Positions 24,668 through 40,179 of a stretch of 64,000 nucleotides of DNA are shown one piece after another. Numbering within the stretch: position 1 is the stretch's first letter; the number at the start of each line of letters is the position of its first letter. Under the pieces are notes generated by a model that worked only from the letters and a program-made list of their open reading frames with translations, made no database searches and was not told the DNA's origin. The stretch comes from an uncultured bacterium (GTDB lineage: Bacteria > Patescibacteriota > Patescibacteriia > Magasanikbacterales > GWA2-37-8): contig CALCZC010000025.1 of NCBI GenBank assembly GCA_937903605.1, positions 67,275-131,274 on the forward strand, written 5' to 3'. A program made the position numbers and the translations under genes.

Positions 24668-24686
24668 AAATAATATTCTGTATTTT

Positions 24687-24717
24687 AAACACTTCACCCT
24701 AGGGTGAAGTGTTTTAA
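24687..24717 (+). terminator. family-2 hairpin terminator (perfect palindrome variant)
   Basis: aaacacttcaccctagggtgaagtgtttt. Confidence 0.7.
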
Positions 24718-24802
24718 TTTTGTTTTATATTAGCAAAAATTTGTTTCTTGAGTTTTTTAGGGAAAAGGAGTAAAATAAATGCATCTTATTTAACAAAAAT
24801 TT

Positions 24803-25465
24803 ATGAAATTAAAGGAGGTTCCCGTCGTCGATAGACCGCGGGAAAAGTTGGAAAAATATGGGGTAAATAGGCTCAGTGACAGCGAGCTTATGGCTATTTT
24901 GATTCGCACCGGGATTGTTGGTAAAAATGTTGTGGAGCTTTCCAAACAAATTTTGAAAAAAATTAAAAAACTCGGTTTGGAAAAAATGGAAATGAAGGAT
25001 TTATTGGAAATAAAAGGTTTGGGAAAAACCAAGGCCGGGCAGATATTGGCAAGCTTGGAAATCGGTCGCCGTTTTCTTCAAAACAAAAAATCCGAATTAA
25101 TACTTTCTCCGCAAGATGTTTGGAACGAAATGAAAGACTTGCGCGACAGTAAAAAAGAACATTTTGTTATTTTTTATCTAGACACGCAAAATCAAATTAT
25201 TAAAAGAGAAATTATTTCCGTCGGCACGTTAAACGAAAGTCTGATTCATCCGCGAGAAGTTTTTGAACCGGCTGTCAGATATTCCACGGCGCAAATAATC
25301 ATGGCGCACAACCATCCGTCCGGGAATTTGGAACCGTCGCCTGAAGATGTCGCAGTTTCAAGACGTTTGATAGACGCCGGAAATTTATTGGGGATTGAAG
25401 TTTTGGATCATATTATCATAACAAAGGACGGTTTTAAAAGCATGAAAGAATTAAAAATGTTATAG
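24803..25465 (+). CDS. radC: RadC-like JAB/MPN domain protein
   Basis: JAMM motif HNHPSGNLEPSPEDV and an N-terminal HhH-like region. Confidence 0.85.
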   Translation: MKLKEVPVVDRPREKLEKYGVNRLSDSELMAILIRTGIVGKNVVELSKQILKKIKKLGLEKMEMKDLLEIKGLGKTKAGQILASLEIGRRFLQNKKSELILSPQDVWNEMKDLRDSKKEHFVIFYLDTQNQIIKREIISVGTLNESLIHPREVFEPAVRYSTAQIIMAHNHPSGNLEPSPEDVAVSRRLIDAGNLLGIEVLDHIIITKDGFKSMKELKML

Positions 25466-25468
25466 GTT

Positions 25469-26089
25469 ATGTCAAATCACTATACAGAAAAATTAAAAGC
25501 GGCTTTAAAAAAACGAGTTTATGTTTACATAGACGCGGCTAATTTGGAACGCTCGGTACAGGATATGTGGGTAAACTCCAAAGATATTCCGGATAATTTA
25601 AAAGAAAATAAAGCGGAAGAGTTGCACTATCGCGTAGATTATCAAAAATTTAAAGCTTATTTTGACAAAATTTCCGATTTAAAAGAAATAAAATTTTATT
25701 CCGCCGATTTTAATAATGAAAAGCACAGTAAGTTTTTATGGTTTTTAAGTAAAATATTAAAATTTAAATTAGGAACAAAACCTTTGAAAGAATATACTGA
25801 CCACACTCCTGAAACTCCGCACCGAAAAGCAAATTTTGACGTAGAACTGGCGGTAGATGCTACTTATCATTTGAATAAATATGACACTTTGGTTTTGTTT
25901 TCAGGAGATTGTGATTTTGAATACCTGATCAAATTTTTGAAGGGTCATGGTAAAGTGGTTATTGTTTTTTCACGGGTCGGACATGTGGCCAAAGAACTTC
26001 CGCCAGCAAGCAGTTATTATTTTGACATAGTGGACTTTAGACAGGAATTGTTAAAAATAGAAACTAAAACGCAAAAAATCCCGCGATAA
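25469..26089 (+). CDS. NYN/LabA-like (PIN-fold) nuclease-domain protein
   Basis: VYVYIDAANL…LVLFSGDCDFEYLIKFLKGHGKVVIV matches the NYN Asp pattern. Starts 4 nt after radC. Confidence 0.7.
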   Translation: MSNHYTEKLKAALKKRVYVYIDAANLERSVQDMWVNSKDIPDNLKENKAEELHYRVDYQKFKAYFDKISDLKEIKFYSADFNNEKHSKFLWFLSKILKFKLGTKPLKEYTDHTPETPHRKANFDVELAVDATYHLNKYDTLVLFSGDCDFEYLIKFLKGHGKVVIVFSRVGHVAKELPPASSYYFDIVDFRQELLKIETKTQKIPR

Positions 26090-26405
26090 AGCGGGATTCT
26101 GCAGTTGATTACAAGTGATACTGCTATCACCTGTAATTCAACTATACATTAATTTTACGATTTTGTCAATGTTATCCACAACGGAAAAAGTACCTAAGAT
26201 TGTTGTAATACTAAATAAACAAAAAACCCAATCGGTTAGATTAGGCGCTTTGTTGAAGTAGCGTCTTAAAAAGTGGTTATCTGCGGCTTAAGTCCCGAGT
26301 TCCTCGGGGGAACACCACAGCGCTCTCTAAGCTATTATTGCATACTTCAAGATTAATATACCACAAAACCCCTTTTTCGCCAATATCAGCTTATCCACAG
26401 GTTTT

Positions 26406-26435
26406 TTGTCATCCTGAACTTGATTCAGGATCTCC
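26406..26435. repeat. family-1 short unit (gtcatcctgaacttgattcaggatctccc)
   Basis: Palindromic ATCCTGAA-cttga-TTCAGGAT core. Confidence 0.6.
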
Positions 26436-26473
26436 CTTTAAGTCTAATTTCGCCTGTTCAAGGCGGATTTTTT

Positions 26474-26506
26474 AACACTTCAGCCTGTAGGTTGAAGTGT
26501 TTTTGT
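26474..26506 (+). terminator. family-2 hairpin (no annotated CDS immediately upstream)
   Basis: aacacttcagcctgtaggttgaagtgtttttgttt. Confidence 0.55.
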
Positions 26507-26795
26507 TTGGGTTGAATTAGCGAAAATTTATTTTTGACAAAATCACCAAAATATACTATACTACTAATAGTTACAATCTAAAATAATTATTTATCAAGAG
26601 CGCAGGTAGTTTCTTCGCCGAGGCGGAGAACTTAGGGATCTAGCCCAAAATCTGCCGGCAACCTCTGTGGCTGACTGCCAAAGAAAGGTGCCAATTCTAG
26701 CCCGAATAGGGAAAGATGATCGTCGATTTTTTGTTTCTTGAGCAAAAAGCATCTTTCCCACCCGGGAAAGATTTTTAATTTTTAATAATGAATAT

Positions 26796-27173
26796 ATGAT
26801 AACTGAAAATTTTAATACTTATACTTTTAAATTTTTATCAGGGGTTAAAAATAAAATGACGGAGTTTACCGAAGAACCGGATCTTATTGTTTATGAATCA
26901 ATAGGATTAGCCACGGCTGGCAGTGTAGAACATGCAATTATTCTTGCTTTACAACATAAAGAAGGTTTTTTAAAAGAGGCAGTAGGGTATAGAGTCAGAG
27001 AAAATAATGATATTATTAAAATTCTCAGCAAAGCCACGGGTAAAGATTATGTCGGAGTGGAGTTTTATAAGTTAAAAAGAAAAAATCAAGAAGAATTAAG
27101 TGGTATAGGTAAGTTTTTTGCGGACAATTTGAACAAGAATGTCCTGGAAGATCAAAAAAAGATGAAAAATTGA
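26796..27173 (+). CDS. hypothetical protein
   Basis: 125-aa ORF. No motif recognised. Confidence 0.35.
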   Translation: MITENFNTYTFKFLSGVKNKMTEFTEEPDLIVYESIGLATAGSVEHAIILALQHKEGFLKEAVGYRVRENNDIIKILSKATGKDYVGVEFYKLKRKNQEELSGIGKFFADNLNKNVLEDQKKMKN

Positions 27174-27352
27174 AGTTTTCTTAAAAAAATGCTAAACTTT
27201 AATGGCAATATTCGTATAAATTTTAGTATAGCACTAGTATAATTAGTATCAATTATTCGTATCTATGAAATTAATATTAAATTAGTATAAATTTTAGTAT
27301 TACATTCGTATCATTAGTACAATTAGTATATTAGTATCAATTATTTGTATCT

Positions 27353-27931
27353 ATGAAACTAACTCCCAAAATACAAAAAGCCATCAATTACGCCAGTCGT
27401 TTGCATGCCAAACAGATAAGAAAAGGGGATAAAGACCTGCCTTATGTCAGCCATTGCTTCACCGCGGCTTGGATTCTCAATGAATTTACCAAAGACGAAG
27501 ATATTATCGTGGCCGGATTGCTTCACGATGTACTGGAAGATGTTCCGGGTTATGGTTACGAAAGGATGAAAAAAGATTTTGGCGCGCGAGTGGCGAAAAT
27601 AGTCGCCGGTGTTACCGAAGATAAAGATCCCAATAAAAAAGAGAAAGAGAAGCCGTGGATTGAAAGAAAACAGAAATATCTCGAGCATCTCAAAAAAGAT
27701 AGCCGGGAATCCATGATGGTAAGCGCAGCGGATAAAATACACAATTTGCAGTCCATGCGCGATGCTTATTGCGAACAAGGGGAGAAATTGTGGAAGCATT
27801 TCAATGCTACAAAAGAGGAATCTCTTTGGTTTTATGAGCAAGTTTATAAGATTATTAGGGGGAAATTGAGGAATAAAATTGTGGGGGAATTGGGGAAACA
27901 ATTGGCAGGGGCAAAAAAGGAATTTAAATAA
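27353..27931 (+). CDS. HD-domain small alarmone hydrolase-like protein (paralog 2)
   Basis: …HCFTAAWILNEFTKDEDIIVAGLLHDVLEDV… matches the SpoT-type HD motif. Paralog of 21755-22342. Confidence 0.75.
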   Translation: MKLTPKIQKAINYASRLHAKQIRKGDKDLPYVSHCFTAAWILNEFTKDEDIIVAGLLHDVLEDVPGYGYERMKKDFGARVAKIVAGVTEDKDPNKKEKEKPWIERKQKYLEHLKKDSRESMMVSAADKIHNLQSMRDAYCEQGEKLWKHFNATKEESLWFYEQVYKIIRGKLRNKIVGELGKQLAGAKKEFK

Positions 27932-27935: not shown

Positions 27936-27968
27936 TAACACTTCAGCCTGTAGGTTGAAGTGTTTGTT
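27936..27968 (+). terminator. family-2 hairpin terminator
   Basis: aacacttcagcctgtaggttgaagtgtttgtttt. Confidence 0.65.
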
Positions 27969-28175: not shown

Positions 28176-29105
28176 ATGAAAAGTTATTATCGTATAATGC
28201 TTGGCAAGGGTAGTGTTTATGCCAAAGAAGCAAGGTTAGAAAATTTTATGGGCGCCGGATGGCTTGGTGATATTGATTTAACAAATGAATTACCAGAAAG
28301 TCGAGTTGAATTCAATAAGAAATTCATACCTGTTTATTTAAAAAAACATCCTGATGCAAAGAAAATGTCAGCGGCCCTTGCTTGTGGTATGTTATACACG
28401 ATCGCAAAAGGTATTGTTATTGGTGATATTGTTTTATGTCCGGATGGGTCAGGTAATTATTATTTCGGAGAAGTCATTGGTGATTATCAATATGTGTCGG
28501 GAGTAAACTTACCGCACCGTCGTGCTGTGAAATGGTATTCCAAAATTATTCCCAGAGAAGAAATGAGTCAAGCTTTAAAATATTCCACTGGCGCCATTGG
28601 TACAGTTAGCAATATAACCGATCATGCTTCTGAATTAGAAAAATTGATATCAGGTAATGTTGAAAGTCCGATTGTTGTGACCGACGAGTCAATTGAAGAC
28701 CCAAGTGTATTTATGTTAGAGAAACATCTAGAGGATTTTTTGGTACAAAATTGGAACAATACTGAATTGGGTAAGAATTATAATATTTATGAAGAAGATG
28801 GTGAAATAGTGGGGCAACAATATCCTAGCGATACTGGTCCAATAGATATTTTGGCAATTAGTAAAGATAAAAAAACACTTTTGGTAGTTGAGTTAAAAAA
28901 AGGACGCGCAAGTGATGTGGTGGTCGGCCAAATTCAAAGGTACATGGGTTATGTAAAAGACGAATTAGCAGAAAAAAATCAAGAAATTAAAGGGGTTATA
29001 ATTGCTTTTGAAGATGATATTAAAATTCGCCGTGCTTTATCGGTTGCAAATAACATCGATTTTTATACTTATAAAATTGATTTTAAACTTGAAAAAAATA
29101 AATAA
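28176..29105 (+). CDS. YhcG/DUF1016-like PD-(D/E)xK nuclease-domain protein
   Basis: C-terminal …GPIDILAISKDKKTLLVVELKKGRASDVVVGQIQRYMGY… is a D…ExK motif resembling YhcG. It is the first gene of a tightly spaced 15-gene array. Confidence 0.5.
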   Translation: MKSYYRIMLGKGSVYAKEARLENFMGAGWLGDIDLTNELPESRVEFNKKFIPVYLKKHPDAKKMSAALACGMLYTIAKGIVIGDIVLCPDGSGNYYFGEVIGDYQYVSGVNLPHRRAVKWYSKIIPREEMSQALKYSTGAIGTVSNITDHASELEKLISGNVESPIVVTDESIEDPSVFMLEKHLEDFLVQNWNNTELGKNYNIYEEDGEIVGQQYPSDTGPIDILAISKDKKTLLVVELKKGRASDVVVGQIQRYMGYVKDELAEKNQEIKGVIIAFEDDIKIRRALSVANNIDFYTYKIDFKLEKNK

Positions 29106-29107: not shown

Positions 29108-30682
29108 ATGACTAATTTTAATACTTCAAAAGAACAAGAACGTGCCGAGCTTCATCGTGCTATTTGGCAAATTGCTAATGATCTAAGGGGAAGTGTAGAT
29201 GGTTGGGATTTCAAACAATATGTTTTGGGAATTTTGTTTTATAGATTTATTGGTGAAAATCTTTCTAATTATATCAATAAACAACAGAGAAAAGTTAAAG
29301 GGTTTGAAAATTTTGAATATTCAAATTTGAGCGATAAAGAAGCAGAATTGGGTAAAAAAGAAATTGTGTTGGCAAAGGGTTTCTATATTCTTCCAAGTGA
29401 GCTTTTTGTAAATGTTCGTAAAAATGCTAAAAACAATGCAAATTTAAACGAAACTCTTTCAAGAGTTTTTAGTAATATTGAAAATTCTGCAAAAGGTTTT
29501 GATAGTGAGGATGATATAAAAGGGTTATTTGCTGACCTTGATGTCAATTCTCCAAAACTTGGAAATACAGTTGAAAAACGTAATCAAAAATTAGTAAAAC
29601 TTTTAGATGCTATTGGAGATCTTCAATTAGGAAATTACTCTGATAATACTATCGATGCTTTCGGTGATGCTTATGAGTTTTTAATGACCATGTATGCTTC
29701 AAATGCTGGTAAATCTGGAGGTGAATTTTATACACCACAAGAAGTTAGTGAATTACTTGCAAAAATTACGACTGTGGGTAAAAAAGAGGTAAACAAAGTT
29801 TATGATCCATGTTGTGGTTCAGGATCGCTTCTTTTGAAATTTGCCAAAGTTCTTGGTAAAGAAAATGTCCGGCTTGGTTTTTTTGGTCAAGAAATAAATC
29901 TTACCACCTATAATTTGTGTCGTATCAACATGTTTTTACACGATATCAACTATAATCATTTTGATATTGAGCTCGGTGACACACTAACTGATCCCAAACA
30001 TTGGGATGACGAACCTTTTGATGCTATAGTTTCTAACCCGCCTTATTCAATTAATTGGGAAGGGGACGCTAATCCGCTTTTAATAAACGACCCTCGTTTT
30101 TCGCCTGCTGGAGTACTTGCTCCAAAGAGTAAAGCTGATTTGGCTTTCACCATGCACATGCTTTCGTGGCTTTCTACCAGCGGAACGGCGGCGATTGTTG
30201 AATTCCCTGGAGTTCTTTATCGTGGTGGAGCTGAAGCAAAAATCCGCAAATATTTGATTGATAACAATTACGTTGATGCTGTAATACAACTTCCACTAGA
30301 TCTTTTCTTTGGTACAACCATTGCTACTTGTGTTATCGTTTTAAAGAAGAGTAAAAAAGACAATAAGACTTTATTTATCGATGCTTCCGCTGAATTTGTT
30401 CGGGGTGGTAATAAAAATAAATTAAACGAAGAAAATCGTAAAAAGATCCTGAATGCTTTTATAGAAAGAAAAGATATAGAACATTTTGCAAAAATTATAG
30501 ATAACAAAGCTATTGCAGAAAATGATTACAATCTAGCAGTTTCTAGTTATGTGGAGCAAAAAGACACTAGAGAAGCAGTGGACATAAAAGAACTTAATAA
30601 AGAAATTGAGAGAATCGTAAAAAGACAAAGTGAATTAAGGTTGGCAATTGATGAGATTGTGAGGGAGATTGAGGGTAATTAA
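29108..30682 (+). CDS. hsdM: Type I restriction-modification system, DNA methyltransferase subunit M
   Basis: N6-adenine MTase motif IV NPPYS, an AdoMet-binding region (DPCCGSGSLL), and an HsdM N-terminal domain. Confidence 0.9.
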   Translation: MTNFNTSKEQERAELHRAIWQIANDLRGSVDGWDFKQYVLGILFYRFIGENLSNYINKQQRKVKGFENFEYSNLSDKEAELGKKEIVLAKGFYILPSELFVNVRKNAKNNANLNETLSRVFSNIENSAKGFDSEDDIKGLFADLDVNSPKLGNTVEKRNQKLVKLLDAIGDLQLGNYSDNTIDAFGDAYEFLMTMYASNAGKSGGEFYTPQEVSELLAKITTVGKKEVNKVYDPCCGSGSLLLKFAKVLGKENVRLGFFGQEINLTTYNLCRINMFLHDINYNHFDIELGDTLTDPKHWDDEPFDAIVSNPPYSINWEGDANPLLINDPRFSPAGVLAPKSKADLAFTMHMLSWLSTSGTAAIVEFPGVLYRGGAEAKIRKYLIDNNYVDAVIQLPLDLFFGTTIATCVIVLKKSKKDNKTLFIDASAEFVRGGNKNKLNEENRKKILNAFIERKDIEHFAKIIDNKAIAENDYNLAVSSYVEQKDTREAVDIKELNKEIERIVKRQSELRLAIDEIVREIEGN

Positions 30683-30688: not shown

Positions 30689-32890
30689 ATGAATAAATTA
30701 AAAGTTAAATTAGAAAATTGTTACGGAATAAAAAAGCTTGAACACGAGTTTGATTTTTCTAATTTTAAAACTTTTGTTATCTATGCACCCAACGGCGTAA
30801 TGAAGACATCATTTGCAAAAACCCTTAGCGATATTGCAAAAGGAGAAAAACCCTGTGATCAAATAGATGATACTTTAACACCAATTTTTAATTTTTTAAT
30901 TGATGATTCTGAAAATCAAATCCAATCAGAAGAAATATGTGTTATAGAGTCATACAACAAAAAAGCGTTTGATTCTGAAGATAAGATTCTTACGCTTCTA
31001 GCAGACGACGAGACCAAAAAGGAATATTTGGCAATATTTAACGAAATTGAATCACTTAAAAAAGCTTCTCTTCCTGGATTAAAAAAAATATCAGGCAGTA
31101 GTAACTACGAATCTGAAATTACAGAAGCATTTTCTAATCTTGATAAGAAAAATATTTTTGAAATTTTTGAGGCCGTTTTAAATGACATTGAAGCATCGAA
31201 AGATTCATTTGAATTTAAATATAACGATGTTTTTGATAAAGGTGGAAAAGTTAAAAAATTTCTGGCAGATAATTTTGCATTATTAAAAGAGTACATTGAA
31301 AAATACAATGATCTGATTAGTAAGTCTACTTTTTTTGCAAAAAATGCCAACCATATTTTTGGAACAACGGAAGCAAAAATTCTTGGTAAGTCGCTTGAGG
31401 GCGATGAATATTTTACTGCTGGGCATAAATTAGTATTAAAATCACATGGGGATGTATCTGCTAAAAATAAATTATCAGAAATAATTGATGAGGAAATTGA
31501 AAAAGTTTTTAATGATAAAGACCTGAAAGATATTTTTGAAAAAATCGATAATTTGCTCAATACTAATAAAGAACTTCAAGCATTTAAGAAGATTATTGAA
31601 AGAGACAATTCAATTTTATTGAGATTAAATAATTACGATGCTTTTAGAAGAGAGGTGTGGTTTAGTTTTTTAAAACAAATTGAGACAAGCATAAAATCAT
31701 TAGTTGAATTATATAATCAGAAAAAGGTTGATTTAGAAAGGATTATACAAAAAGCAAAGGACAGTCAGTCACAATGGGAAAGTGCTATTAAAGAATTTGA
31801 AAACAGATTTGTTAATAATCCATTTACTCTTGAAATTCAAAATAAGGCGGACGCTGTATTAAACGAAAAGACACCAGTAATTGATTTTAAATTTCAAGGA
31901 AAAGATATCGAAAGAAACAATTTGATAGAAAATGTATTGAGCCAAGGAGAGAGACGAGCTTTTTATATTTTAAATGTTATTTTTGAGATTAAATCTCGGC
32001 AGCTACAAAACAAAAAAACATTATTTATTATTGATGACATAGCGGACTCGTTTGATTACAAAAATAAATATGCAATTATTGAATATTTAAATGATTTATC
32101 CAAAGAAGATAATTTCTATTCAATAATTTTAACGCACAACTTTGACTTTTTTAGGACACTTCAATCAAGAATCTTGCAAGATAATAAGTGGAACTATTCT
32201 TTTATAGCAGAAAAACTAACAGATGAAATTAAACTAATTAAAGCAGGTAGTAAAAATGTTACTGACCCATTTACTAACTGGAAAGCAGGTCTTAATAACA
32301 ACAAAAAACATTTAATTGCTTGTATTCCTTTTGTGCGAAATTTGATTGAATTTAAAGATGGACGAAATGATGGATATAAGCTTCTAACGCACACTCTTCA
32401 TAGAAAATCTTTGGACGAAACTATTAAAGCAACCCCAGATATTTCAATTGCTGATCTACAAGCACCGTTTTCGAGTGTTGTGTCTGGTGTTGCATTTACA
32501 TTTACAGACACAAATGAAAAAATTATTGATGTAATTGAGGAACAGATAGCAGTGATAAAAAATGACAGAAATACCGATTCAATTGTTCTAGAAGATAAAA
32601 TTATTTTTGCTATTGGAATAAGATTGAAAGCAGAAGAATATATGTGGTCGAAGGTTACAAACCAAGATCTAATAAACGGATCGCAAACAGGTAAGCTGTT
32701 TCAGCGATACAAAGATCAATTTAAACAAGATCCGACTCATGTTGAAGCTATAAAAATCTTAGAAAGCGTAAATATAATGACTCCTGAGAACATACACCTG
32801 AACTCTTTTATGTATGAACCAATTTTAGATATAGGCATAGATGAGTTAAAGAGTTTACACGATAAGGTTTGCAATTTAATGAATAATTAG
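30689..32890 (+). CDS. ABC-type (Rad50/SMC-like) ATPase with ~400-aa helical insertion and C-terminal R-x3-E…H module; RloC-like anticodon-nuclease candidate
   Basis: Degenerate Walker A APNGVMKTS. ABC signature LSQGERRAF, Walker B LFIIDDIADSFD and H-loop ILTHNFDFF about 400 aa downstream. C-terminal GIRLKAEEY…(39 aa)…H. Lies between hsdM and hsdS. Confidence 0.5.
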   Translation: MNKLKVKLENCYGIKKLEHEFDFSNFKTFVIYAPNGVMKTSFAKTLSDIAKGEKPCDQIDDTLTPIFNFLIDDSENQIQSEEICVIESYNKKAFDSEDKILTLLADDETKKEYLAIFNEIESLKKASLPGLKKISGSSNYESEITEAFSNLDKKNIFEIFEAVLNDIEASKDSFEFKYNDVFDKGGKVKKFLADNFALLKEYIEKYNDLISKSTFFAKNANHIFGTTEAKILGKSLEGDEYFTAGHKLVLKSHGDVSAKNKLSEIIDEEIEKVFNDKDLKDIFEKIDNLLNTNKELQAFKKIIERDNSILLRLNNYDAFRREVWFSFLKQIETSIKSLVELYNQKKVDLERIIQKAKDSQSQWESAIKEFENRFVNNPFTLEIQNKADAVLNEKTPVIDFKFQGKDIERNNLIENVLSQGERRAFYILNVIFEIKSRQLQNKKTLFIIDDIADSFDYKNKYAIIEYLNDLSKEDNFYSIILTHNFDFFRTLQSRILQDNKWNYSFIAEKLTDEIKLIKAGSKNVTDPFTNWKAGLNNNKKHLIACIPFVRNLIEFKDGRNDGYKLLTHTLHRKSLDETIKATPDISIADLQAPFSSVVSGVAFTFTDTNEKIIDVIEEQIAVIKNDRNTDSIVLEDKIIFAIGIRLKAEEYMWSKVTNQDLINGSQTGKLFQRYKDQFKQDPTHVEAIKILESVNIMTPENIHLNSFMYEPILDIGIDELKSLHDKVCNLMNN

Positions 32891-32891: not shown

Positions 32892-34010
32892 ATGAAAAAA
32901 CACCAATCAAAAATTGAAAAACTAATTTCAGAACTATGCCCTAATGGTGTGGAGTTTAAAATGCTTGGAGAACTAGAAGATGATAATTTGATTAAACTTG
33001 GACGTGGAAATGTAATTTCAAAAACTGATATTACAAACACACCTGGTGATTATCCGGTTTATTCTTCATCTGCAAATGATGAGGGCGAATTTGGCAGGTA
33101 TGGAAAATATATGTTTGATGATGAAAGAATTACGTGGTCAATCGATGGGGGCGGTAGATTTTTTTATAGACAGTCACATAAATATTCTGTAACAAATGTA
33201 TCGGGGTGGTTAAAAGTAAATGATAATAATGTATTAAATTTACGTTATTTGTATTTTGTTCTGTCAAATGCTTGGTTAACAAAAGTTTTTGATTATACAA
33301 AAAAAGCTCATCCTTCAGTAATTAGAGAAGAGTACAAAATCCCTATTCCACCTCTTGCAATTCAAGAAGAAATTGTAAAAATTCTTAATAGTTTTACGGA
33401 GCTGGAAGCGGAGCTGGAAGCGGAGCTGGAAGTAAGAAAGAAACAGTATGATTATTACCATAAAGAACTTTTTGATTTAAGGGATGATTTCGAATTAAAA
33501 ACACTTGGGGATATTTACGAATTTCAATATGGAGAAGGAAATACTATTCCTACTTCAGGGGATAAATTTCCAGTATATGGAAGTAATGGTATTGTTGGTT
33601 CTCATGAAAAATTCAACAGTGAAGATGCTCCGGTGATTGGACATATTGGAGCTTACGCAGGAATAGTAAATTGGGCTCAAGGAAAACACTTTGTTACATA
33701 CAACGGAGTTATTTGTAAAATCAAGCCAGGAGTTAATCCAAGGTTTGGTTATCATCTGTTGATTCTCCAAGATTTTAGATCAAAAGCAAACGCAGGGTCT
33801 CAACCTTTTGTTTCTTACGACATGCTTAGAAAAACCGAAGTAAAAATACCTCCTATTTTAATACAAAATAAAATTGCAGATGTCCTTGATAAATTTGATG
33901 CACTTGTAAACGATATTTCAGTTGGTTTGCCTGCCGAGCTCAAAGCACGTAGGTCACAATACGAATATTATAGAAATAAACTTCTTGATTTTAAAGAGTT
34001 AGAAAAATAA
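32892..34010 (+). CDS. hsdS: Type I restriction-modification system, specificity subunit S
   Basis: Two target-recognition domains. Central and C-terminal conserved helices (…LAIQEEIVKILNSFTELEAEL… and …LPAELKARRSQYEYYRNKLLDF). Confidence 0.85.
   Translation: MKKHQSKIEKLISELCPNGVEFKMLGELEDDNLIKLGRGNVISKTDITNTPGDYPVYSSSANDEGEFGRYGKYMFDDERITWSIDGGGRFFYRQSHKYSVTNVSGWLKVNDNNVLNLRYLYFVLSNAWLTKVFDYTKKAHPSVIREEYKIPIPPLAIQEEIVKILNSFTELEAELEAELEVRKKQYDYYHKELFDLRDDFELKTLGDIYEFQYGEGNTIPTSGDKFPVYGSNGIVGSHEKFNSEDAPVIGHIGAYAGIVNWAQGKHFVTYNGVICKIKPGVNPRFGYHLLILQDFRSKANAGSQPFVSYDMLRKTEVKIPPILIQNKIADVLDKFDALVNDISVGLPAELKARRSQYEYYRNKLLDFKELEK
33398..33433 (+). repeat. 3× 12-bp in-frame tandem repeat (GGAGCTGGAAGC; EAEL units) in the central conserved region of hsdS
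   Basis: ggagctggaagcggagctggaagcggagctggaagt. Confidence 0.85.
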
Positions 34011-34011: not shown

Positions 34012-35166
34012 ATGGTTGAATTCGACTCAATCTCTGAATTGTTTGTTAATATAAAAAATGATTTATTATCAGATATTGATAAAAAGAGTATTGCTTTACT
34101 TTATGCTTTTAATTCTACTGGTAAGACAAGGCTTTCTATTGAGTTTGATGAATTAAACGAAAATGATAATGGTTATATTAAAGTACTATCTTATAATGCT
34201 TTTTTAGAAGACCTGTTTGTCTGGGATAATAAGAACCTTGTCTTAAATTTTAGTCCGGATGATTGGCGGATAAGATTTATTCAGGATCAAGGTTTAGAAA
34301 ATAAAATTGTAGAGAATTTTAAATTATTTACTAATTCAAAAGTTGAGCCTATCTTTGAAATTGAAACACATAGAGCAGAGCTCGATAAATTTATATTAGA
34401 CAAATCTAAACTAGGTGGAAATAAGATAGGAAAAATTTCTTTTTTTATTGCTTCAGGAGATGGAAAAAATAAAGATAGCATAAAAATTTCTAAAAGTGAA
34501 GAAAGTATACTGATATGGTCTGTTTTTTATTCTATTTTAGAGATTGTTATAGAAGAATTAAATACACCAGAAGAACATCGTTCAACTAATCTTTTTAATC
34601 ACCTTGAATATATTGTAATAGATGATCCTGTTTCTTCGATCGATGATGAAAGAATTATTTCTTTAGCAGTAAAATTATGTAGGACTATAAAGTTAAATGA
34701 AAATAGAAAAATAAACTTTTTAATAACCACACATCACGCTTTATTTTTTAATGTTTTATTTAATTCTTTCAAAAAATTTCAAAAATCTGATGTAAAAAAA
34801 TATTGTTATATTTTATCAAAAAATGGTAATATTTTTATATTAGAAAGCCAGAAAGATGATTCACCGTTTGCATATCATATTTTAGTTAAAAATAAGCTTA
34901 AAGAAGCAATAAAAAATGGAAGTCTTGAAAAATACCATTTTAATTTATTTAGAACTTTATTAGAAAAAACGGCAAATTTTTTAGGATATACTGATTGGGG
35001 TGAGTGTATTTATAAAGAAGAAAACAGAGAAGAAGTTAAAAGACTTATTAATTTATATAGTCATAGCAAATTATCAGAATTGGAAAGTGGAAGTTTAAGT
35101 AATGCTGATAAAGAGTTGTTTGCAAATACTTTTAATTCTTTTATGGAAGATTTTAAATATAAATAA
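34012..35166 (+). CDS. PrrC-like anticodon nuclease candidate (ABC-type ATPase N-domain + C-terminal R-x3-E…H module)
   Basis: Walker A FNSTGKTRL, Walker B YIVIDDPVSSIDD, H-loop LITTHHALFF. C-terminal FRTLLEK…(37 aa)…YSHSK. Sits between hsdS and hsdR, as in the prr locus. 384 aa (PrrC is about 396). Confidence 0.55.
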   Translation: MVEFDSISELFVNIKNDLLSDIDKKSIALLYAFNSTGKTRLSIEFDELNENDNGYIKVLSYNAFLEDLFVWDNKNLVLNFSPDDWRIRFIQDQGLENKIVENFKLFTNSKVEPIFEIETHRAELDKFILDKSKLGGNKIGKISFFIASGDGKNKDSIKISKSEESILIWSVFYSILEIVIEELNTPEEHRSTNLFNHLEYIVIDDPVSSIDDERIISLAVKLCRTIKLNENRKINFLITTHHALFFNVLFNSFKKFQKSDVKKYCYILSKNGNIFILESQKDDSPFAYHILVKNKLKEAIKNGSLEKYHFNLFRTLLEKTANFLGYTDWGECIYKEENREEVKRLINLYSHSKLSELESGSLSNADKELFANTFNSFMEDFKYK

Positions 35167-35169: not shown

Positions 35170-38100
35170 ATGTCTAAAAATAATAATTACAATTTAGTTG
35201 CAGAAAATACACAAAGCACGGTTGTCGCCGAGTATGTTTCTGGTACAAAAAGATTATCACAATATCAAAGTGAAGATGCTTTAGAAAAAGCTTTTATTAA
35301 ACAATTAGAATCTCAGGCGTATGAATATATTGCGATTAAATCCGAAAATGATTTGATTCTTAATCTTCGCAAACAACTTGAAAAGTTAAATAGTTATACT
35401 TTTTCTGATGCAGAATGGGATAGATTTTTTACGAGCGAAATAGCAAATCCAAATCAGAGTATTGAAGAAAAAACTGCAACTATACAAGAAAATGAAGTAA
35501 AAAATTTATATGGTGATGATGGAAAATTTAAAAGAAATATAACTCTTTTAGATAAGAAAAATATTCACAACAACAGTCTGCAAGTCATCAATCAGTACGT
35601 CACCGAAGACGGACAAAGATCGAATCGTTATGATGTGACGGTATTGGTAAATGGATTACCGCTTATACACATTGAATTAAAACGTCGTGGAGTTGCTATT
35701 CAAGAAGCATTTAACCAAATAAACAGATATCAAAGAGAGAGTTTTTGGGCTTCAAGTGGTCTTTTTGAATATGTGCAATTGTTTGTAATATCTAATGGAA
35801 CACATACAAAATATTACAGCAATACAACAAGATCACAACACGTCAAAGAATCTCAAGAGGGTTCTAAAAATAAAGGAAAGAAGACCAGTAATAGTTTTGA
35901 ATTTACAAGTTGGTGGGCTGATGCAACAAATAGACCAATCACTGATTTGATGGACTTTGCAAAAACATTTTTTGCAAAGCATGCGATTTTGAATATTCTG
36001 ACGAAGTATTGCGTATTTACGACCGATCGCCTTTTGCTTGTTATGCGACCGTATCAAATCGTAGCAACAGAAAGAATTTTAAATCGCATTGAAGTTAGTA
36101 CAAATTATAAAAAACTTGGCACCACCGAAGCGGGTGGCTATATTTGGCACACCACAGGGTCAGGAAAGACTCTGACGAGTTTTAAAACTGCTCAATTGGC
36201 AAGTAAATTGTCATATGTAGATAAAGTATTGTTTGTGGTAGATCGTAAGGATTTGGACTATCAAACAATGAAAGAATATGACAAGTTTGAAAAAGGTGCG
36301 GCGAACAGCAATACGAGCACTGCGGTTTTAAAGAAACAACTGGAGGATTCAAATTCTAGAATTATTATCACAACAATTCAAAAACTTGATAGATTTATTG
36401 CCAAAAATTCTAGTCACACTATTTTTGATGGTCATATCGTAATTATTTTTGACGAGTGTCATCGTTCGCAATTTGGTGAAATGCATTCGAGTATTATAAA
36501 ATCATTTAATAATTATCACTTATTTGGATTTACTGGAACACCAATATTTTCTAAGAATGCTTCAGCTGGTGGCAGACCTGATTTCAAGACCACAGAGCAG
36601 GCTTTTGGTGAAAAATTACACACTTATACAATAGTTGATGCTATTTCTGATAAGAATGTTTTACCGTTTAAAGTTGATTATGTTTCAACTGTTAAAGAAG
36701 CAGAAAATATTGAAGACGCTCAAGTAAAAGATATTGACCGTGAAGCGGTATTATCCGCTCCAGAACGATTAGAAAATATTGTTCGCTATATTCGTGAACA
36801 TTTTGATCAGAAAACTAAAAGAAATAGTTTTTATAAAATTCAAGATAGAAGATTAGCGGGGTTTAATTCTGTTTTTGCAGTTTCTTCTATTGAGGTAGCA
36901 AAGAAATATTATCTTGAATTTAAAAGACAGTTGGCAGATGAACCGAGTGATAAAAAATTAAAAGTCGCCACAATATTTAGTTTTGGAGTAAATGACGAGG
37001 ATATAGACGGAATGATTGATGAAAATTCTGAAGATACAAGTGGTTTAGACGTAAGTTCAAGAGAGTTTCTTGAAAGTGCTATCAAAGATTATAATAAAAT
37101 GTTTGGAACGTCTTATGACACTTCATCTGAAAAATTTCAAAATTACTATAAAGATGTTAGTGAAAAAGTAAAAAAACGAGAAATAGACATCTTAATTGTG
37201 GTTAATATGTTTTTAACTGGTTTTGATGCTACTACTTTAAATACTTTGTGGGTAGATAAGAATTTGAGATTGCATGGATTACTTCAGGCATATTCAAGAA
37301 CTAACCGTATATTAAATAGTATTAAAACTTTTGGAAATATTGTTTGTTTTAGAAACCTAGAAAAAGCTACTAATGAAGCGATTGCTTTATTTGGAGATAA
37401 AGAAGCCGGTGGAATCGTATTACTTAAAGCATATGAGGATTACTACAATGGGTATAAAGAAGGTAATAAAGAAGTTCGAGGATACAAAAGTTTTGTTAAT
37501 GAACTACTTGCAAAGTTTCCAATCGGAGAAAGAATTATTGGAGAACAAAATCAAAAAGATTTTATAAAATTATACGGAGCAATTTTGAGAGTCAAAAATA
37601 TTTTAGCTACTTTCGATGAATTTAATGGTAATGAAATATTATCTGATAGAGATGTGCAAGATTATCATAGTATGTATATTGATTTATACAATGAATTCCG
37701 CAAAGCCGATGATTCTGAGAAAGAAAACATTAATGACGATATTGTTTTTGAAATGGAACTTATCAAACAAGTTGAAATTAACATTGATTATGTTCTTGGT
37801 CTTATAAAAATATATCATGAGGATCATGTAAAAAATAAAGAACTTTTGATAGATATTAATAAAGCAATTGATTCGAGTGTGGAATTGCGTAATAAAAAAG
37901 ATTTGATCAATCAGTTTATTACTTCCCTTGATGTTCATTCTATCATTGATGAAGATTGGCAAAAGTTTGTGGAAGAGAAAAAAGTCCAAGAATTAGAACA
38001 AATTATTGAAACTGAAAATCTTGATCATGAAGCTACATATAAATTTATAAAAAACTCTTTTAGAGATGGTAATATACCGATTACAGGAACCGCTATAAGT

Positions 38101-38226
38101 GATATTTTGCCACCAGTATCAATGTTTTCCCCAAACGGAGAAAGAACTAAAAAAAGAGAAGGTGTTTTGGATAAATTAACAAGATATTTTGAGAGGTTTT
38201 TTGATATTAGTAAAAGAGATTTATAG
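35170..38226 (+). CDS. hsdR: Type I restriction enzyme, R subunit (helicase/endonuclease)
   Basis: N-terminal PD-(D/E)xK (…LIHIELKRRG). SF2 motifs TTGSGKT (I), FDECHRSQ (II) and further helicase motifs. 1018 aa. Confidence 0.9.
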   Translation: MSKNNNYNLVAENTQSTVVAEYVSGTKRLSQYQSEDALEKAFIKQLESQAYEYIAIKSENDLILNLRKQLEKLNSYTFSDAEWDRFFTSEIANPNQSIEEKTATIQENEVKNLYGDDGKFKRNITLLDKKNIHNNSLQVINQYVTEDGQRSNRYDVTVLVNGLPLIHIELKRRGVAIQEAFNQINRYQRESFWASSGLFEYVQLFVISNGTHTKYYSNTTRSQHVKESQEGSKNKGKKTSNSFEFTSWWADATNRPITDLMDFAKTFFAKHAILNILTKYCVFTTDRLLLVMRPYQIVATERILNRIEVSTNYKKLGTTEAGGYIWHTTGSGKTLTSFKTAQLASKLSYVDKVLFVVDRKDLDYQTMKEYDKFEKGAANSNTSTAVLKKQLEDSNSRIIITTIQKLDRFIAKNSSHTIFDGHIVIIFDECHRSQFGEMHSSIIKSFNNYHLFGFTGTPIFSKNASAGGRPDFKTTEQAFGEKLHTYTIVDAISDKNVLPFKVDYVSTVKEAENIEDAQVKDIDREAVLSAPERLENIVRYIREHFDQKTKRNSFYKIQDRRLAGFNSVFAVSSIEVAKKYYLEFKRQLADEPSDKKLKVATIFSFGVNDEDIDGMIDENSEDTSGLDVSSREFLESAIKDYNKMFGTSYDTSSEKFQNYYKDVSEKVKKREIDILIVVNMFLTGFDATTLNTLWVDKNLRLHGLLQAYSRTNRILNSIKTFGNIVCFRNLEKATNEAIALFGDKEAGGIVLLKAYEDYYNGYKEGNKEVRGYKSFVNELLAKFPIGERIIGEQNQKDFIKLYGAILRVKNILATFDEFNGNEILSDRDVQDYHSMYIDLYNEFRKADDSEKENINDDIVFEMELIKQVEINIDYVLGLIKIYHEDHVKNKELLIDINKAIDSSVELRNKKDLINQFITSLDVHSIIDEDWQKFVEEKKVQELEQIIETENLDHEATYKFIKNSFRDGNIPITGTAISDILPPVSMFSPNGERTKKREGVLDKLTRYFERFFDISKRDL

Positions 38227-38232: not shown

Positions 38233-38946
38233 ATGAATATTTTAGGAATACACACTGAATTTATTGTTAATTCAACTCTATTAATAGGAGCTGTGGCTTA
38301 TCTATCACACTTTTTTGGTAAAGTCATAACCGACTGCAAACCAATAGTTGATGATCGTAAATGGGATGCCGAACTTTCCGGAGTTTATTATATTGGAATG
38401 TATGTTTTTTTGCCACTTACACTTTTATTAATCATTCCGCAATCCATATTGATGAATTTTCTTGATTCAATTGGTTTAAATAGTTTTGTTGCTGTTTTAT
38501 TACAGTTTATCCTTTGCTCTTATCTTTCTGTGTTTCAAGTAATTAAGTCACGGTTTTTTTACAGTGTGCCAACAGGACAAATAAAGTGGGTTGAAAAACG
38601 AATTGTAGAATATATAAAAAAGAAACGAAATTTTAAATTAAGTATTATTTTGGTGTTACTTGCACAAATACAATTATATTATTCTAGCAATGTTAGATTA
38701 TTTATTCTTGGTTTAATATTTTGTTTGATCTTTTATTTTTTACGTGCTGCCATATTTTCTTATGATAAAAATGTAAAACTAAATAAATTTAATATTTATT
38801 TTATAGATACAACGATTGCACCTTTACTTAATTATGATTTGGTTAAAATTAACGATGATCATATTAAGTTAAAAAAAGACGGTAAATTTATGATTATAAA
38901 TAAAAATACTATTTTACGTCTTGAGTGTTTAGAAAAAGAAAAATAA
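38233..38946 (+). CDS. hypothetical membrane protein
   Basis: 237 aa with about five TM helices. Very AT-rich. Confidence 0.4.
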   Translation: MNILGIHTEFIVNSTLLIGAVAYLSHFFGKVITDCKPIVDDRKWDAELSGVYYIGMYVFLPLTLLLIIPQSILMNFLDSIGLNSFVAVLLQFILCSYLSVFQVIKSRFFYSVPTGQIKWVEKRIVEYIKKKRNFKLSIILVLLAQIQLYYSSNVRLFILGLIFCLIFYFLRAAIFSYDKNVKLNKFNIYFIDTTIAPLLNYDLVKINDDHIKLKKDGKFMIINKNTILRLECLEKEK

Positions 38947-38953
38947 TAAAAAT

Positions 38954-39592: not shown

Positions 39593-39603
39593 TTTAAATA
39601 AAT

Positions 39604-40179
39604 ATGCAAACACCGATTTTAATAAAAGAACATGTGAGTATAACTCAATTTATTAATTTTTGGTCAAGTTATTATATTTATGCAAAAATTGAAAATTATT
39701 ATATAAAAAATATAAATAAAAAAGTATTTGATAGTGAAACGTTAAACGCTTTATTTATGTGGAAGAATGGATCTGTGTTAAGTAAAAAAAAGAAAGATTC
39801 TCTGAATAAAAATATTATAAGAAAAATTGAAATAATAAATTCTCTTAAAAATAAATTTGATTTCGATCTGTTTAAAAAGGAATTTAAAAATGTGTCTGTA
39901 ATATGGAAAATTTTTCTTCTAAACTTAATTAAACCGAAAACATACCCCATATTTGATCAACATGTTTTTAGAGCGATGAAATTTATTAAATTTTCTAAAA
40001 TTGAAGAAGTTCCAAATAATGACAGAGAAAAAGAAGAAGTATATTTTGATGAATACATAGATTTTTTTAATAAAATTAAAGCTGAATTACCAAGAGATTT
40101 TGATAATAAAAAAATTGATGAAGCACTTTGGTCTTTTGGAAAATTTCTTAAGAGTAATTACAAAACAATTTTATGTTAG
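39604..40179 (+). CDS. hypothetical protein
   Basis: 191-aa Lys-rich ORF. No motif recognised. Confidence 0.35.
   Translation: MQTPILIKEHVSITQFINFWSSYYIYAKIENYYIKNINKKVFDSETLNALFMWKNGSVLSKKKKDSLNKNIIRKIEIINSLKNKFDFDLFKKEFKNVSVIWKIFLLNLIKPKTYPIFDQHVFRAMKFIKFSKIEEVPNNDREKEEVYFDEYIDFFNKIKAELPRDFDNKKIDEALWSFGKFLKSNYKTILC

What the first reader, a model, noticed from the sequence alone, without database searches (positions are those of the whole stretch)
30689..32890. Second, larger ABC ATPase between hsdM and hsdS with Rad50-like helical insertion and its own R-x3-E…H tail (RloC-like?)
Walker A (APNGVMKTS) is separated by about 400 residues from the ABC signature LSQGERR, Walker B LFIIDDIAD and H-loop THNF, as in Rad50/SMC/RloC. 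The C-terminal GIRLKAEEY…(39 aa)…H resembles the ACNase spacing. No CxxC zinc hook is visible, so it is not a canonical RloC. Its position inside the hsd operon suggests it is also silenced or regulated by the R-M complex.
Basis: partly seen in the sequence, partly recalled or inferred. Interest (0 to 1): 0.75.

Follow-up and report, generated by a model that had tools for sequence, protein, structure and literature searches.

The report
Uncharacterised ABC-ATPase defence candidate in restriction operon
The gene between hsdM and hsdS encodes a real 733-residue protein of a large uncharacterised family (PADLOC candidate PDC-S46) that joins an SMC/Rad50-type ATPase to a C-terminal domain resembling HEPN RNases, so it is probably a self-contained anti-phage "suicide" nuclease, related in design to PrrC and RloC but a member of neither.

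Summary
The ORF (30689-32890, +) is real. It sits in a tightly packed six-gene operon: PDC-S02 nuclease, hsdM, target, hsdS, PrrC, hsdR.

The protein matches PADLOC model PDC-S46 over its full length (E 7e-231). PDC-S46 is one of 145 untested candidates found by "guilt-by-embedding". The family is large (more than 900 clusters at 50% identity) and spans bacteria and archaea. No source gives it a functional name.

AlphaFold places the 270-residue insertion where Rad50 carries its coiled coil. It is modelled as many short helices, the longest 27 residues, not a long coiled coil.

Only 11-13 of 80 homologous loci lie within type I R-M operons, and no partner gene is conserved. Obligate PrrC-style silencing by the R-M complex is therefore unlikely for the family.

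It is not RloC and not PrrC. It is best read as a new variant of the ABC-ATPase plus HEPN-like effector design. The nuclease activity is inferred, not shown.

The parts
30689..32890 (+). Whole gene: 733-aa PDC-S46-family protein (ABC ATPase, helical insertion, HEPN-like C-terminal domain)
   Evidence: ORF. PADLOC PDC-S46 E 6.7e-231, residues 1-730 against model positions 1-718 of 719. phrog_38705 E 1.3e-127. The exact protein occurs on 10 public contigs with the same neighbours.
30689..31006 (+). ABC head, N-terminal lobe (residues 1-106), including Walker A
   Evidence: AlphaFold beta-strands 3-32 and helix 39-50. Foldseek to SMC/Rad50 heads.
30785..30811 (+). Walker A / P-loop APNGVMKTS (residues 33-41). 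It is deviant: Met replaces the Gly before the Lys.
   Evidence: Y32, N35 and K39 invariant; M38 in 129/131; G36 in 127/131.
31007..31807 (+). Helical insertion (residues 107-373) at the site where SMC/Rad50/RloC carry their coiled coil; candidate sensor domain
   Evidence: AlphaFold gives 16 helices of at most 27 residues plus short strands, with block pLDDT of about 66-93. No Pfam family. No CxxC.
31808..32248 (+). ABC head, C-terminal lobe (residues 374-520)
   Evidence: Pfam SMC_N match over 259-490, below threshold at 22.8 bits. Fold match.
31937..31957 (+). ABC signature LSQGERR (residues 417-423)
   Evidence: L417 128/131, S418 130/131, G420 128/131, E421 130/131.
32021..32068 (+). Walker B and D-loop LFIIDDIADSFDYKNK (residues 445-460). 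DD replaces DE, as in PrrC (IIDDPVSSID).
   Evidence: D450, F455, D456, Y457, N459 and K460 invariant. In-register alignment to the PrrC Walker B.
32132..32146 (+). H-loop THNFD (residues 482-486)
   Evidence: H483, N484 and D486 invariant.
32249..32887 (+). C-terminal all-alpha domain (residues 521-733), HEPN-like fold; proposed effector (RNase)
32336..32407 (+). Conserved block R550-N551-x2-E554-Y555 ... L566-T567-x3-H571-x-K573
   Evidence: R550 131/131, N551 128/131, E554 111/131, H571 131/131, K573 120/131. In one weak hhalign alignment R550..E554 pairs with PrrC R314..E318; in another it pairs with the PrrC RLLNLYSH motif.
32621..32635 (+).
   Evidence: R645 130/131 and E649 126/131. Helix assignment.
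32786..32830 (+). Invariant loop motif E700-N-I-H703-L-N705-S-F707-M-Y-E710-P711-x2-D714, just after helix 682-697; candidate catalytic histidine loop
   Evidence: H703, N705, F707, E710, P711 and D714 are 131/131. The loop is modelled with low confidence: pLDDT < 50 at 699-708 in the full-length model and at the equivalent of 703-707 in the C-terminal-domain model, so it may be flexible.
28176..29105 (+). Operon neighbour: PDC-S02 candidate (DUF8426 plus NucS_C/PD-(D/E)XK nuclease)
29108..30682 (+). Operon neighbour: hsdM
   Evidence: N6_Mtase E 2.6e-115 and HsdM_N.
32892..34010 (+). Operon neighbour: hsdS
   Evidence: Methylase_S, two matched stretches.
34012..35166 (+). Operon neighbour: genuine PrrC anticodon nuclease
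   Evidence: PADLOC PrrC E 2.6e-100. AAA_13 at 42.3 bits, above the 36-bit cutoff. R314, E318 and H351 invariant.
35170..38226 (+). Operon neighbour: hsdR
   Evidence: HSDR_N, SWI2_SNF2, T1R_D3-like and EcoR124_C.

Best explanation
The gene encodes a single-polypeptide, self-contained anti-phage effector of the ABC-ATPase plus HEPN-like-nuclease design.

Shown:
- It is a full-length member of the catalogued but untested PADLOC candidate family PDC-S46.
- It has an SMC/Rad50-type split ABC head with every nucleotide-site motif under strict conservation.
- A 270-residue multi-helix domain replaces the coiled coil.
- A 210-residue C-terminal all-alpha domain has HEPN proteins as its nearest solved folds and carries about ten invariant polar residues.

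Inferred mechanism:
- The insertion domain senses an infection cue, such as a phage protein, an anti-restriction factor or a DNA feature.
- ATP binding drives head-to-tail dimerisation of the ABC heads.
- This brings two C-terminal domains together and assembles a metal-independent RNase site. H571 and/or H703 would act as acid/base. R550, K573 and R645 would bind the phosphate. E649 and N705 would assist.
- The enzyme would cleave RNA, by analogy tRNA anticodon loops, and so shut down translation and abort the infection.

In this operon it would be a third layer of defence beside the type I R-M enzyme and PrrC. Across the family it works without an R-M partner, so its control logic is closer to RloC (self-governed) than to PrrC (R-M-silenced).
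For: - Family membership: PDC-S46 E 6.7e-231 over the full length. The family was defined by embedding in BREX, DISARM and type I R-M systems.
- ATPase: motifs are present and invariant in 131 sequences at 33-64% identity. The head matches SMC/Rad50 heads, E 2.7e-7 and similar.
- Kinship with the PrrC-type ATPase: DD Walker B plus an SxxD D-loop and TH[NH] aligned in register. One family member has a sub-threshold AAA_13 hit over residues 414-511.
- The invariant polar inventory of the domain (R550, N551, H571, K573, R645, E649, H703, N705, E710, D714) resembles the essential set of the EcoPrrC nuclease domain (3 His, 2 Arg, Glu, 2 Asn; PMC3025547).
- H703 lies in the loop right after a helix, and E649 lies on the preceding long helix. 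This matches the geometry described for HEPN active sites (PMC3710099).
- Defence context: 13/80 loci are near hsd genes and 11/80 are flanked by them. Recurrent neighbours are RhuM/Fic, YhcG nucleases, Mrr-nSTAND3, methyltransferases and integrases. The E. coli homologue sits beside a BREX pglX remnant. The gene also occurs on plasmids and in one phage record. No partner gene is conserved.
Against: - No experiment exists for any family member. No paper in the library mentions PDC-S46.
- Profile searches of the domain against Pfam, PDB sequences and the PrrC family are all non-significant.
- The canonical HEPN Rx4-6H motif is absent. RNxxxY at 550-555 has Tyr in 115/131 sequences and His in 1/131. 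No Arg lies 4-6 residues before H571 or H703.
- I could not obtain coordinates, so the spatial clustering of the conserved residues is untested.
- The P-loop has Met in place of the canonical Gly before the Lys (129/131). This could mean altered or regulatory nucleotide binding.
- The substrate and the trigger are pure analogy.
Confidence: 0.5

Rival explanations
1. The C-terminal domain is a non-catalytic HEPN-like or generic helical module. The protein would then be an ATP-driven sensor, clamp or adaptor that binds nucleic acid or a partner, like the non-catalytic HEPN domains of MtlR or nucleotidyltransferases. It would signal to, or protect, other defence components instead of cutting RNA itself.
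For: - The canonical Rx4-6H motif is absent.
- Foldseek and all sequence-profile tests are non-significant.
- HEPN domains without the motif are described as non-catalytic binders (PMC3710099).
- The region 522-570 shows a weak, non-significant resemblance to the RNA-binding ribosomal protein S15 (E about 1).
Against: - About ten invariant charged or polar residues, including two invariant His and two Arg, across sequences only 33-64% identical look like an active site.
- No conserved partner gene exists through which a signal could be passed.
Confidence: 0.2
2. PrrC-like logic at this locus: the protein is bound and silenced by the HsdM/S/R complex encoded around it, and is released when a phage anti-restriction factor disables the complex.
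For: - The gene is embedded between hsdM and hsdS with 6-nt and 1-nt gaps.
- The same gene order recurs in loci from other genomes: L007 and L008 carry hsdM, target, hsdS, hsdR with hsdM directly upstream, and L010, L011 and L016 keep that order with one extra ORF (RhuM/Fic-type, cluster c4) between hsdM and the target.
- PrrC provides the precedent.
Against: - 67 of 80 homologous loci have no hsd gene within 6 kb.
- Standalone copies occur on plasmids and in E. coli islands.
- PrrC, in contrast, is almost exclusively embedded.
- The same operon already has a PrrC in the canonical hsdS-hsdR slot.
Confidence: 0.15
3. A mobile-element function that is not host defence. For example, a plasmid or prophage establishment, exclusion or anti-defence factor that happens to travel with R-M genes.
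For: - In a Providencia plasmid, the homologue lies upstream of the traM/traY/traA transfer genes, between an orphan hsdM fragment and an antirestriction gene.
- It lies next to type IV secretion (T4SS) genes in an A. baumannii conjugative plasmid.
- It matches a PHROG family.
Against: - Most copies are chromosomal and sit in defence-type neighbourhoods.
- Embedding inside intact hsd operons argues for cooperation with restriction, not opposition to it.
Confidence: 0.08
4. A housekeeping SMC/RecF/RecN/Rad50-type DNA-repair ATPase.
For: Weak SMC_N (22.8 bits) and RecF (26 bits) matches. The head fold matches SMC/Rad50.
Against: - Both matches are far below their curated cutoffs (40 and 172 bits).
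- There is no long coiled coil.
- Distribution is patchy: 6 of 5,426 complete E. coli genomes carry a full-length copy.
- Neighbourhoods are variable and island-like.
Confidence: 0.02

Closest known systems
PADLOC phage-defence candidate PDC-S46 (Payne et al., bioRxiv 10.1101/2024.01.29.577857)
   Same: Full-length HMM match, E 6.7e-231. It is a single-gene system found embedded in type I R-M, which is how the family was defined.
   Different: Nothing differs: this gene is a member. However, the catalogue entry carries no function, domain analysis or experimental test.
RloC (Rad50-like wobble-nucleotide-excising anticodon nuclease)
   Same: - Size class of about 730-800 aa.
- ABC head split by a large insertion at the Rad50 coiled-coil position.
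- C-terminal helical effector domain with a conserved R-x3-E and a downstream His.
- Mostly not linked to R-M, so apparently self-governed (PMC3458546 abstract).
   Different: - No AAA_13 membership.
- The insertion is a bundle of short helices, not a long coiled coil.
- No CxxC zinc hook.
- The E-to-H spacing is 54 residues, against about 32 in PrrC.
- No detectable sequence homology of the tail to the PrrC-type (PrrC/RloC-class) nuclease domain; an RloC profile itself was not compared.
PrrC (R-M-silenced tRNA-Lys anticodon nuclease), present in this same operon at 34012-35166
   Same: - ABC NTPase plus C-terminal nuclease design.
- DD-type Walker B, SxxD D-loop and TH[NH] H-loop aligned in register.
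- Embedded in an hsd operon in this window.
- Similar inventory of conserved His, Arg, Glu and Asn in the tail.
   Different: - Twice the size, with a 270-residue insertion and a 210-residue tail.
- The PADLOC PrrC model does not match it.
- Profile-profile E is only 0.03-0.5 outside the ATPase motifs.
- The family is R-M-linked in only about 15% of loci.
Other ABC-HEPN fusions described by Anantharaman et al. 2013 (APECO1_4465 and ERFG_01251 groups)
   Same: N-terminal ABC ATPase fused to a C-terminal HEPN domain. Found in mobile islands and prophages and with RhuM/Fic-DOC neighbours (compared).
   Different: Those groups are listed as having the Rx4-6H motif conserved, which this family lacks.
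Defence ABC ATPases with separate effectors (PARIS AriA, Septu/retron PtuA, Gabija GajA, Lamassu LmuB)
   Same: ABC head fold: AriA and the retron-IA ATPase appear among the Foldseek hits at E about 3e-4. The sensor-ATPase logic is shared.
   Different: Those systems use a second protein or a TOPRIM/HNH domain as the effector. Here there is no conserved partner gene, no PADLOC match to those families, and the effector candidate is a fused HEPN-like domain.

Membership tests
PADLOC PDC-S46 | Full-length match to the family HMM (PDLC05023) | tested here: met
   E 6.7e-231, 766.8 bits, residues 1-730 against model positions 1-718 of 719.
PADLOC PDC-S46 | Single-gene system (no obligatory partner), seen embedded in BREX, DISARM or type I R-M | tested here: met
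   No conserved neighbour family in 80 loci. 11/80 are flanked by hsd genes. The E. coli copy lies next to a pglX remnant.
ABC ATPase, SMC/Rad50/RecF-like | Walker A, signature (LSGGQ-like), Walker B, D-loop and H-loop in the canonical order | tested here: met
   Residues 33-41, 417-423, 445-450, 453-456 and 482-484. The key residues are invariant in 131 sequences. Caveat: the P-loop has Met in place of the Gly before the Lys.
ABC ATPase, SMC/Rad50/RecF-like | Head fold similar to solved SMC/Rad50 heads | tested here: met
   Foldseek against PDB gives 64 hits at E <= 1e-3. The top hits are Smc, Rad50, cohesin and condensin heads, best E 2.7e-7.
ABC ATPase, SMC/Rad50/RecF-like | Pfam SMC_N above the gathering score | tested here: not met
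   22.8 bits against a cutoff of 40. 39/40 members give only sub-threshold hits.
RloC | Membership of Pfam AAA_13 (PF13166) | tested here: not met
   No hit at E <= 0.1 for the target or for 39/40 family members. One member scores 32.1 bits, below the cutoff of 36, over the ATPase motifs only.
RloC | Long Rad50-like antiparallel coiled coil in the insertion | tested here: not met
   In the AlphaFold model (pLDDT 84), the longest helix in residues 107-373 is 27 residues. No dedicated coiled-coil predictor was available.
RloC | CxxC zinc hook at the coiled-coil apex | tested here: not met
   No CxxC. Cys occurs only at residues 11, 56, 84, 545 and 728.
RloC / PrrC | C-terminal ACNase domain homologous to the PrrC Arg-Glu-His triad domain | tested here: inconclusive
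   hhalign E values are 0.027-0.5. Three mutually incompatible weak registers appear: R550/E554 with PrrC R314/E318; R550 with the PrrC RLLNLYSH motif; ENIH703LNSF with PrrC EKYH309FNLF.
RloC / PrrC | Anticodon-loop cleavage of tRNA | not testable with these tools
   Needs biochemistry.
PrrC | Match to the PrrC family model; size of about 360-400 aa without an insertion | tested here: not met
   The PADLOC PrrC model matches only the neighbouring gene. The target is 733 aa.
PrrC | Near-obligate embedding in a type I hsd operon | tested here: not met
   Met in this window, but only 13/80 family loci have hsd genes within 6 kb.
HEPN superfamily | Four-helix, two-hairpin HEPN fold | tested here: inconclusive
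HEPN superfamily | Rx4-6H catalytic motif at the end of helix 3 | tested here: not met
   R550-N551-x3-Y555 has Tyr in 115/131 sequences and His in 1/131. No Arg lies 4-6 residues before H571 or H703.
HEPN superfamily | Sequence-profile match to any Pfam HEPN family | tested here: not met
   No HEPN family matches the domain in the target or in 24 diverse members, even at E <= 10.

The most novel reading that the evidence does not exclude
PDC-S46 is a third, structurally distinct lineage of ABC-ATPase-gated ribotoxin. It would be widespread in bacteria, archaea and candidate-phyla-radiation (CPR, Patescibacteria) lineages. Its active site would have replaced the canonical HEPN Rx4-6H motif with a split constellation (R550/N551, H571/K573, R645/E649, H703/N705). 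Its globular helical insertion would be a new kind of infection sensor replacing the Rad50 coiled coil and zinc hook. In operons like this one, two different ABC-nuclease ribotoxins (PDC-S46 and PrrC) would guard the same type I restriction enzyme against different anti-restriction strategies.
Probability: 0.25. Interest if true: 0.7.

Novelty: new variant of a known kind. Interest (0 to 1): 0.5.

Why it matters
- The family is very large: 924 clusters at 50% identity with E <= 1e-30.
- It is phylogenetically broad, recurs in defence islands, plasmids and R-M operons, and has no assigned function.
- If the C-terminal domain is an ATP-gated RNase, it adds a major new branch to the PrrC/RloC class. 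It would also show a HEPN-like site that works without the Rx4-6H motif.
- The operon here carries type I R-M with three embedded candidates: PDC-S02, PDC-S46 and PrrC. It is a compact natural example of layered defence in a small, probably CPR, genome.
- A close E. coli homologue (WP_096983205.1) makes the hypothesis directly testable.

Tried and rejected
- **Whole-length hhalign, family against PrrC family.** Only the P-loop region is meaningful; the rest is a forced alignment.
- **Domain-wise hhalign.** E values are 0.03-0.5 with three incompatible registers, so I do not claim sequence homology of the tail to the PrrC nuclease domain.
- **Internal duplication of the tail (520-600 against 625-733).** No signal.
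- **Pfam on the isolated tail and on the insertion, and on 24 diverse tails at E <= 10.** No consistent family.
- **Sequence and profile searches against PDB.** No hits for the whole protein. The tail profile gives only non-significant ribosomal protein S15 matches.
- **No PrrC structure to compare with.** None was found in the PDB by sequence.
- **Foldseek of the tail model against PDB.** No significant hit.
- **afdb50 fold library.** Unavailable.
- **Literature.** No paper mentions PDC-S46 or the RefSeq accessions. The PDC assignment table in the preprint supplement is truncated. Krishnan et al. 2020 (ABC ATPase classification) is not held. The DefensePredictor supplements are not held.
- **Housekeeping SMC/RecF reading.** Rejected on curated cutoffs, patchy distribution and island context.
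Full report
**Observation**

The window has an uninterrupted 733-codon ORF at 30689-32890 on the + strand. It belongs to a run of six co-directional genes separated by 1-6 nt:
- 28176-29105: PADLOC candidate PDC-S02, with DUF8426 plus a NucS_C/PD-(D/E)XK nuclease domain
- 29108-30682: hsdM
- 30689-32890: the target
- 32892-34010: hsdS
- 34012-35166: a genuine PrrC (PADLOC PrrC E 2.6e-100; AAA_13 above its cutoff)
- 35170-38226: hsdR

A strong terminator-like hairpin at 27937-27964 precedes the operon. The identical protein, with the same neighbours, occurs on ten public contigs.

- Walker A: 33-41
- ABC signature: 417-423
- Walker B: 445-453
- H-loop: 482-485
- GIRLKAEEY: 643-651

There is no CxxC. 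The one inaccurate detail is the '39 aa ... H'. The next histidines are H684, which does not appear among the invariant or >=90%-conserved columns, and H703, which is invariant; they lie 33 and 52 residues after Y651.

**What family it is**

Pfam gives only a sub-threshold SMC_N hit (22.8 bits against a cutoff of 40). NCBIfam gives only far-sub-threshold RecF and ABC hits. No PDB sequence matches.

PADLOC matches one model end to end: PDC-S46, E 6.7e-231. [quoted passage not shown] Payne et al. derived them from genes embedded in BREX, DISARM and type I R-M systems. No paper in the library mentions PDC-S46.

The family is large:
- More than 7,600 homologues in one database, named 'hypothetical protein' wherever a name is given.
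- 2,272 clusters at 50% identity with E <= 1e-3, and 924 with E <= 1e-30, nearly all full-length.
- Members in many bacterial phyla, in CPR/Patescibacteria (the closest relatives of this copy) and in archaea.
- Copies on 29 plasmids and one phage record, and a match to phrog_38705.
- 6 of 5,426 complete E. coli genomes carry a full-length copy.

**ATPase**

I aligned 131 representatives that are 33-64% identical to the target. The invariant or nearly invariant positions are:
- Y32, N35 and K39 (P-loop)
- L417, S418, G420 and E421 (signature)
- D449 and D450 (Walker B)
- D453, S454, F455, D456, Y457, N459 and K460 (D-loop and a family-specific extension)
- T482, H483, N484 and D486 (H-loop)

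The P-loop is unusual. Met replaces the Gly before the Lys in 129/131 sequences.

The DD Walker B, SxxD D-loop and TH[NH] H-loop align in register with the PrrC family (IIDDPVSSID, TTHH). One family member has a sub-threshold AAA_13 hit confined to this region. The ATPase is therefore probably closest to the PrrC/RloC-type heads, although the protein is not a member of AAA_13.

The AlphaFold model (pLDDT 84) matches SMC, Rad50, cohesin and condensin heads by Foldseek, with E down to 2.7e-7. AriA and a retron ATPase appear further down the list.

**The insertion**

Residues 107-373 lie between the two halves of the head. This is where SMC, Rad50 and RloC carry their coiled coil. The model shows 16 helices, the longest 27 residues, plus two small hairpins, with good confidence.

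Helices 107-147 and 308-373 could form a short stalk, capped by a globular part at about 150-305. This is inference only, because no coordinates were available. There is no long coiled coil, no zinc hook and no Pfam family.

Only the first half is met. The family is not housekeeping.

**The C-terminal domain**

I modelled residues 500-733 separately (pLDDT 87, pTM 0.85).

The scores are nonetheless modest for a helical domain. Foldseek finds nothing significant; its top hit is again the sacsin HEPN domain, but at E 1.4. Profile searches against Pfam, PDB sequences and the PrrC family are all non-significant. I therefore call the fold HEPN-like with moderate confidence.

**Candidate active-site residues**

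The domain carries a dense set of conserved polar residues:
- R550 (131/131)
- N551 (128/131)
- E554 (111/131)
- H571 (131/131)
- K573 (120/131)
- R645 (130/131)
- E649 (126/131)
- H703, N705, F707, E710, P711 and D714 (all 131/131)

The canonical HEPN Rx4-6H motif is absent. R550-N551-x3 is followed by Tyr, not His.

Anantharaman et al. describe the HEPN site as a His at the end of helix 3 or the start of the next loop, plus an acidic residue on helix 2. The best-fitting assignment is this:
- Helix 634-655, carrying R645 and E649, acts as helix 2.
- Helix 682-697 acts as helix 3.
- The low-confidence, possibly flexible loop ENIH703LN705 carries the catalytic His.

The longer spacing to the His would come from the extra helix 666-678, at the variable HEPN insert position. 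The R550/N551/H571/K573 block would be an additional sub-site or RNA-binding element.

An alternative register, weakly favoured by hhalign (E 0.027), equates R550-N-x2-E554 with PrrC R-N/T-x2-E, and H571-x-K with the PrrC S-H-S-K. I could not decide between the two without coordinates.

EcoPrrC requires His295, His315, Arg320, Asn321, Glu324, Arg349, Asn352 and His356. The target family conserves a comparable inventory.

**Genomic context across the family**

I examined 80 loci from 80 species, with these results:
- No neighbouring gene family is conserved.
- 13 loci have hsd genes within 6 kb, and 11 are flanked by hsd genes on both sides on the same strand.
- The embedded copies come from unrelated phyla (CPR, Kiritimatiellota, Bacteroidota, Chlorobiota), which suggests repeated embedding.
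- Two Saccharibacteria loci (L010, L011) also carry both the target and PrrC in one hsd operon.
- Other recurrent neighbours are RhuM/Fic-DOC (8 loci), YhcG/DUF1016 nucleases, DUF2130, Mrr-nSTAND3, other methyltransferases, type III and IIG R-M genes, and integrases or recombinases.
- In E. coli E8, the homologue lies between a DEAD-box helicase cluster and a BREX pglX remnant.
- In a Providencia plasmid, it lies upstream of the traM/traY/traA transfer genes, between an hsdM fragment and an antirestriction gene.

This is the signature of a mobile, single-gene defence module. It is strongly enriched in R-M operons but not dependent on them.

**Mechanism**

- Shown: family membership, ABC head, insertion architecture (predicted), conserved residues, and context.
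- Moderately supported: a HEPN-like effector fold.
- Inferred by analogy with PrrC, RloC and other HEPN RNases: ATP-driven head dimerisation pairs two tails into an RNase site, which cleaves RNA (perhaps tRNA) and aborts infection. The insertion would be the sensor.
- Control: because most copies lack R-M partners, self-governed control as in RloC is more likely than R-M silencing as in PrrC. Silencing at this particular locus cannot be excluded.

**Comparison and novelty**

- It is a member of PDC-S46.
- It is not a member of RloC. AAA_13 membership, the coiled coil and the zinc hook were all tested and not met.
- It is not a member of PrrC. The PrrC model does not match, and neither the size nor the obligate R-M linkage fits.
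- Membership of the HEPN superfamily is supported by fold only. The defining motif is absent.

It is therefore a new variant of a known kind, the ABC ATPase plus HEPN-like effector. It is already catalogued as an untested candidate but is otherwise undescribed.

**Verdict**

Interest is moderate at 0.5: this is a very large, testable family of unknown function, but the evidence for the effector is structural prediction only.

Noticed in passing
window 26254-26349 (- strand): A DUF3800-V RNA (Rfam RF02964) scores 72.9 bits against a gathering score of 37.4. It lies in the intergenic region between the NYN-domain gene and the next ORF of the island.
   Followed up: no
window 28176-29105: The first gene of the operon is another untested PADLOC candidate, PDC-S02 (E 3e-153). 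It has DUF8426 plus a NucS_C/YhcG-type PD-(D/E)XK nuclease domain. The type I R-M operon therefore carries three embedded defence genes: PDC-S02, PDC-S46 and PrrC.
   Followed up: partly
window 23834-27931 and 38233-41745: The operon sits in a wider defence-type island. Upstream are SNase (PADLOC C3a212 'SNc+LTD'), RadC, an NYN nuclease and an HD_4 phosphohydrolase. Downstream are a 237-aa ORF with no family, HEPN_AbiU2 (38954-39592), a 191-aa ORF with no family, an ADP-ribosylglycohydrolase and a Cas4-like PD-(D/E)XK protein.
   Followed up: partly
window 30785-30811 (residues 33-41): The family-wide P-loop is [AS]-P-N-G-x-M-K-[TS]-S. Met replaces the canonical Gly before the Lys in 129/131 sequences. 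This is unusual for a Walker A motif and may indicate altered nucleotide handling.
   Followed up: partly
window 32252-32398 (residues 522-570): The profile of the C-terminal domain gives only non-significant hits (E about 1) to ribosomal protein S15, an rRNA-binding helical hairpin. The hits cover the block containing the invariant R550-N551.
   Followed up: no
L085 (Providencia plasmid NZ_CP097292.1) 3812-9621: A homologue lies upstream of the plasmid's traM/traY/traA transfer genes. It sits between a truncated 'type I R-M subunit M' gene, a 485-aa hypothetical gene and an antirestriction gene.
   Followed up: no
L087 (E. coli E8 chromosome NZ_CP104526.1) 9001-11187: The E. coli homologue WP_096983205.1 is annotated 'AAA family ATPase'. 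It lies directly after a DEAD/DEAH helicase gene cluster and before a frameshifted BREX-1 pglX. Only 6 of 5,426 complete E. coli genomes carry a full-length copy, and 40 more have fragments.
   Followed up: partly
L009 (Patescibacteria chromosome OZ245768.1) 6081-15062: Here the hsdM, hsdS and hsdR genes flanking the homologue are broken into many short ORFs, apparently pseudogenised or frameshifted by the assembly. The PDC-S46 homologue itself is intact.
   Followed up: no
window 31105-31560 (- strand): An antisense ORF of 151 aa with a TTG start overlaps the target. No evidence was sought for it, and it is most likely spurious.
   Followed up: no
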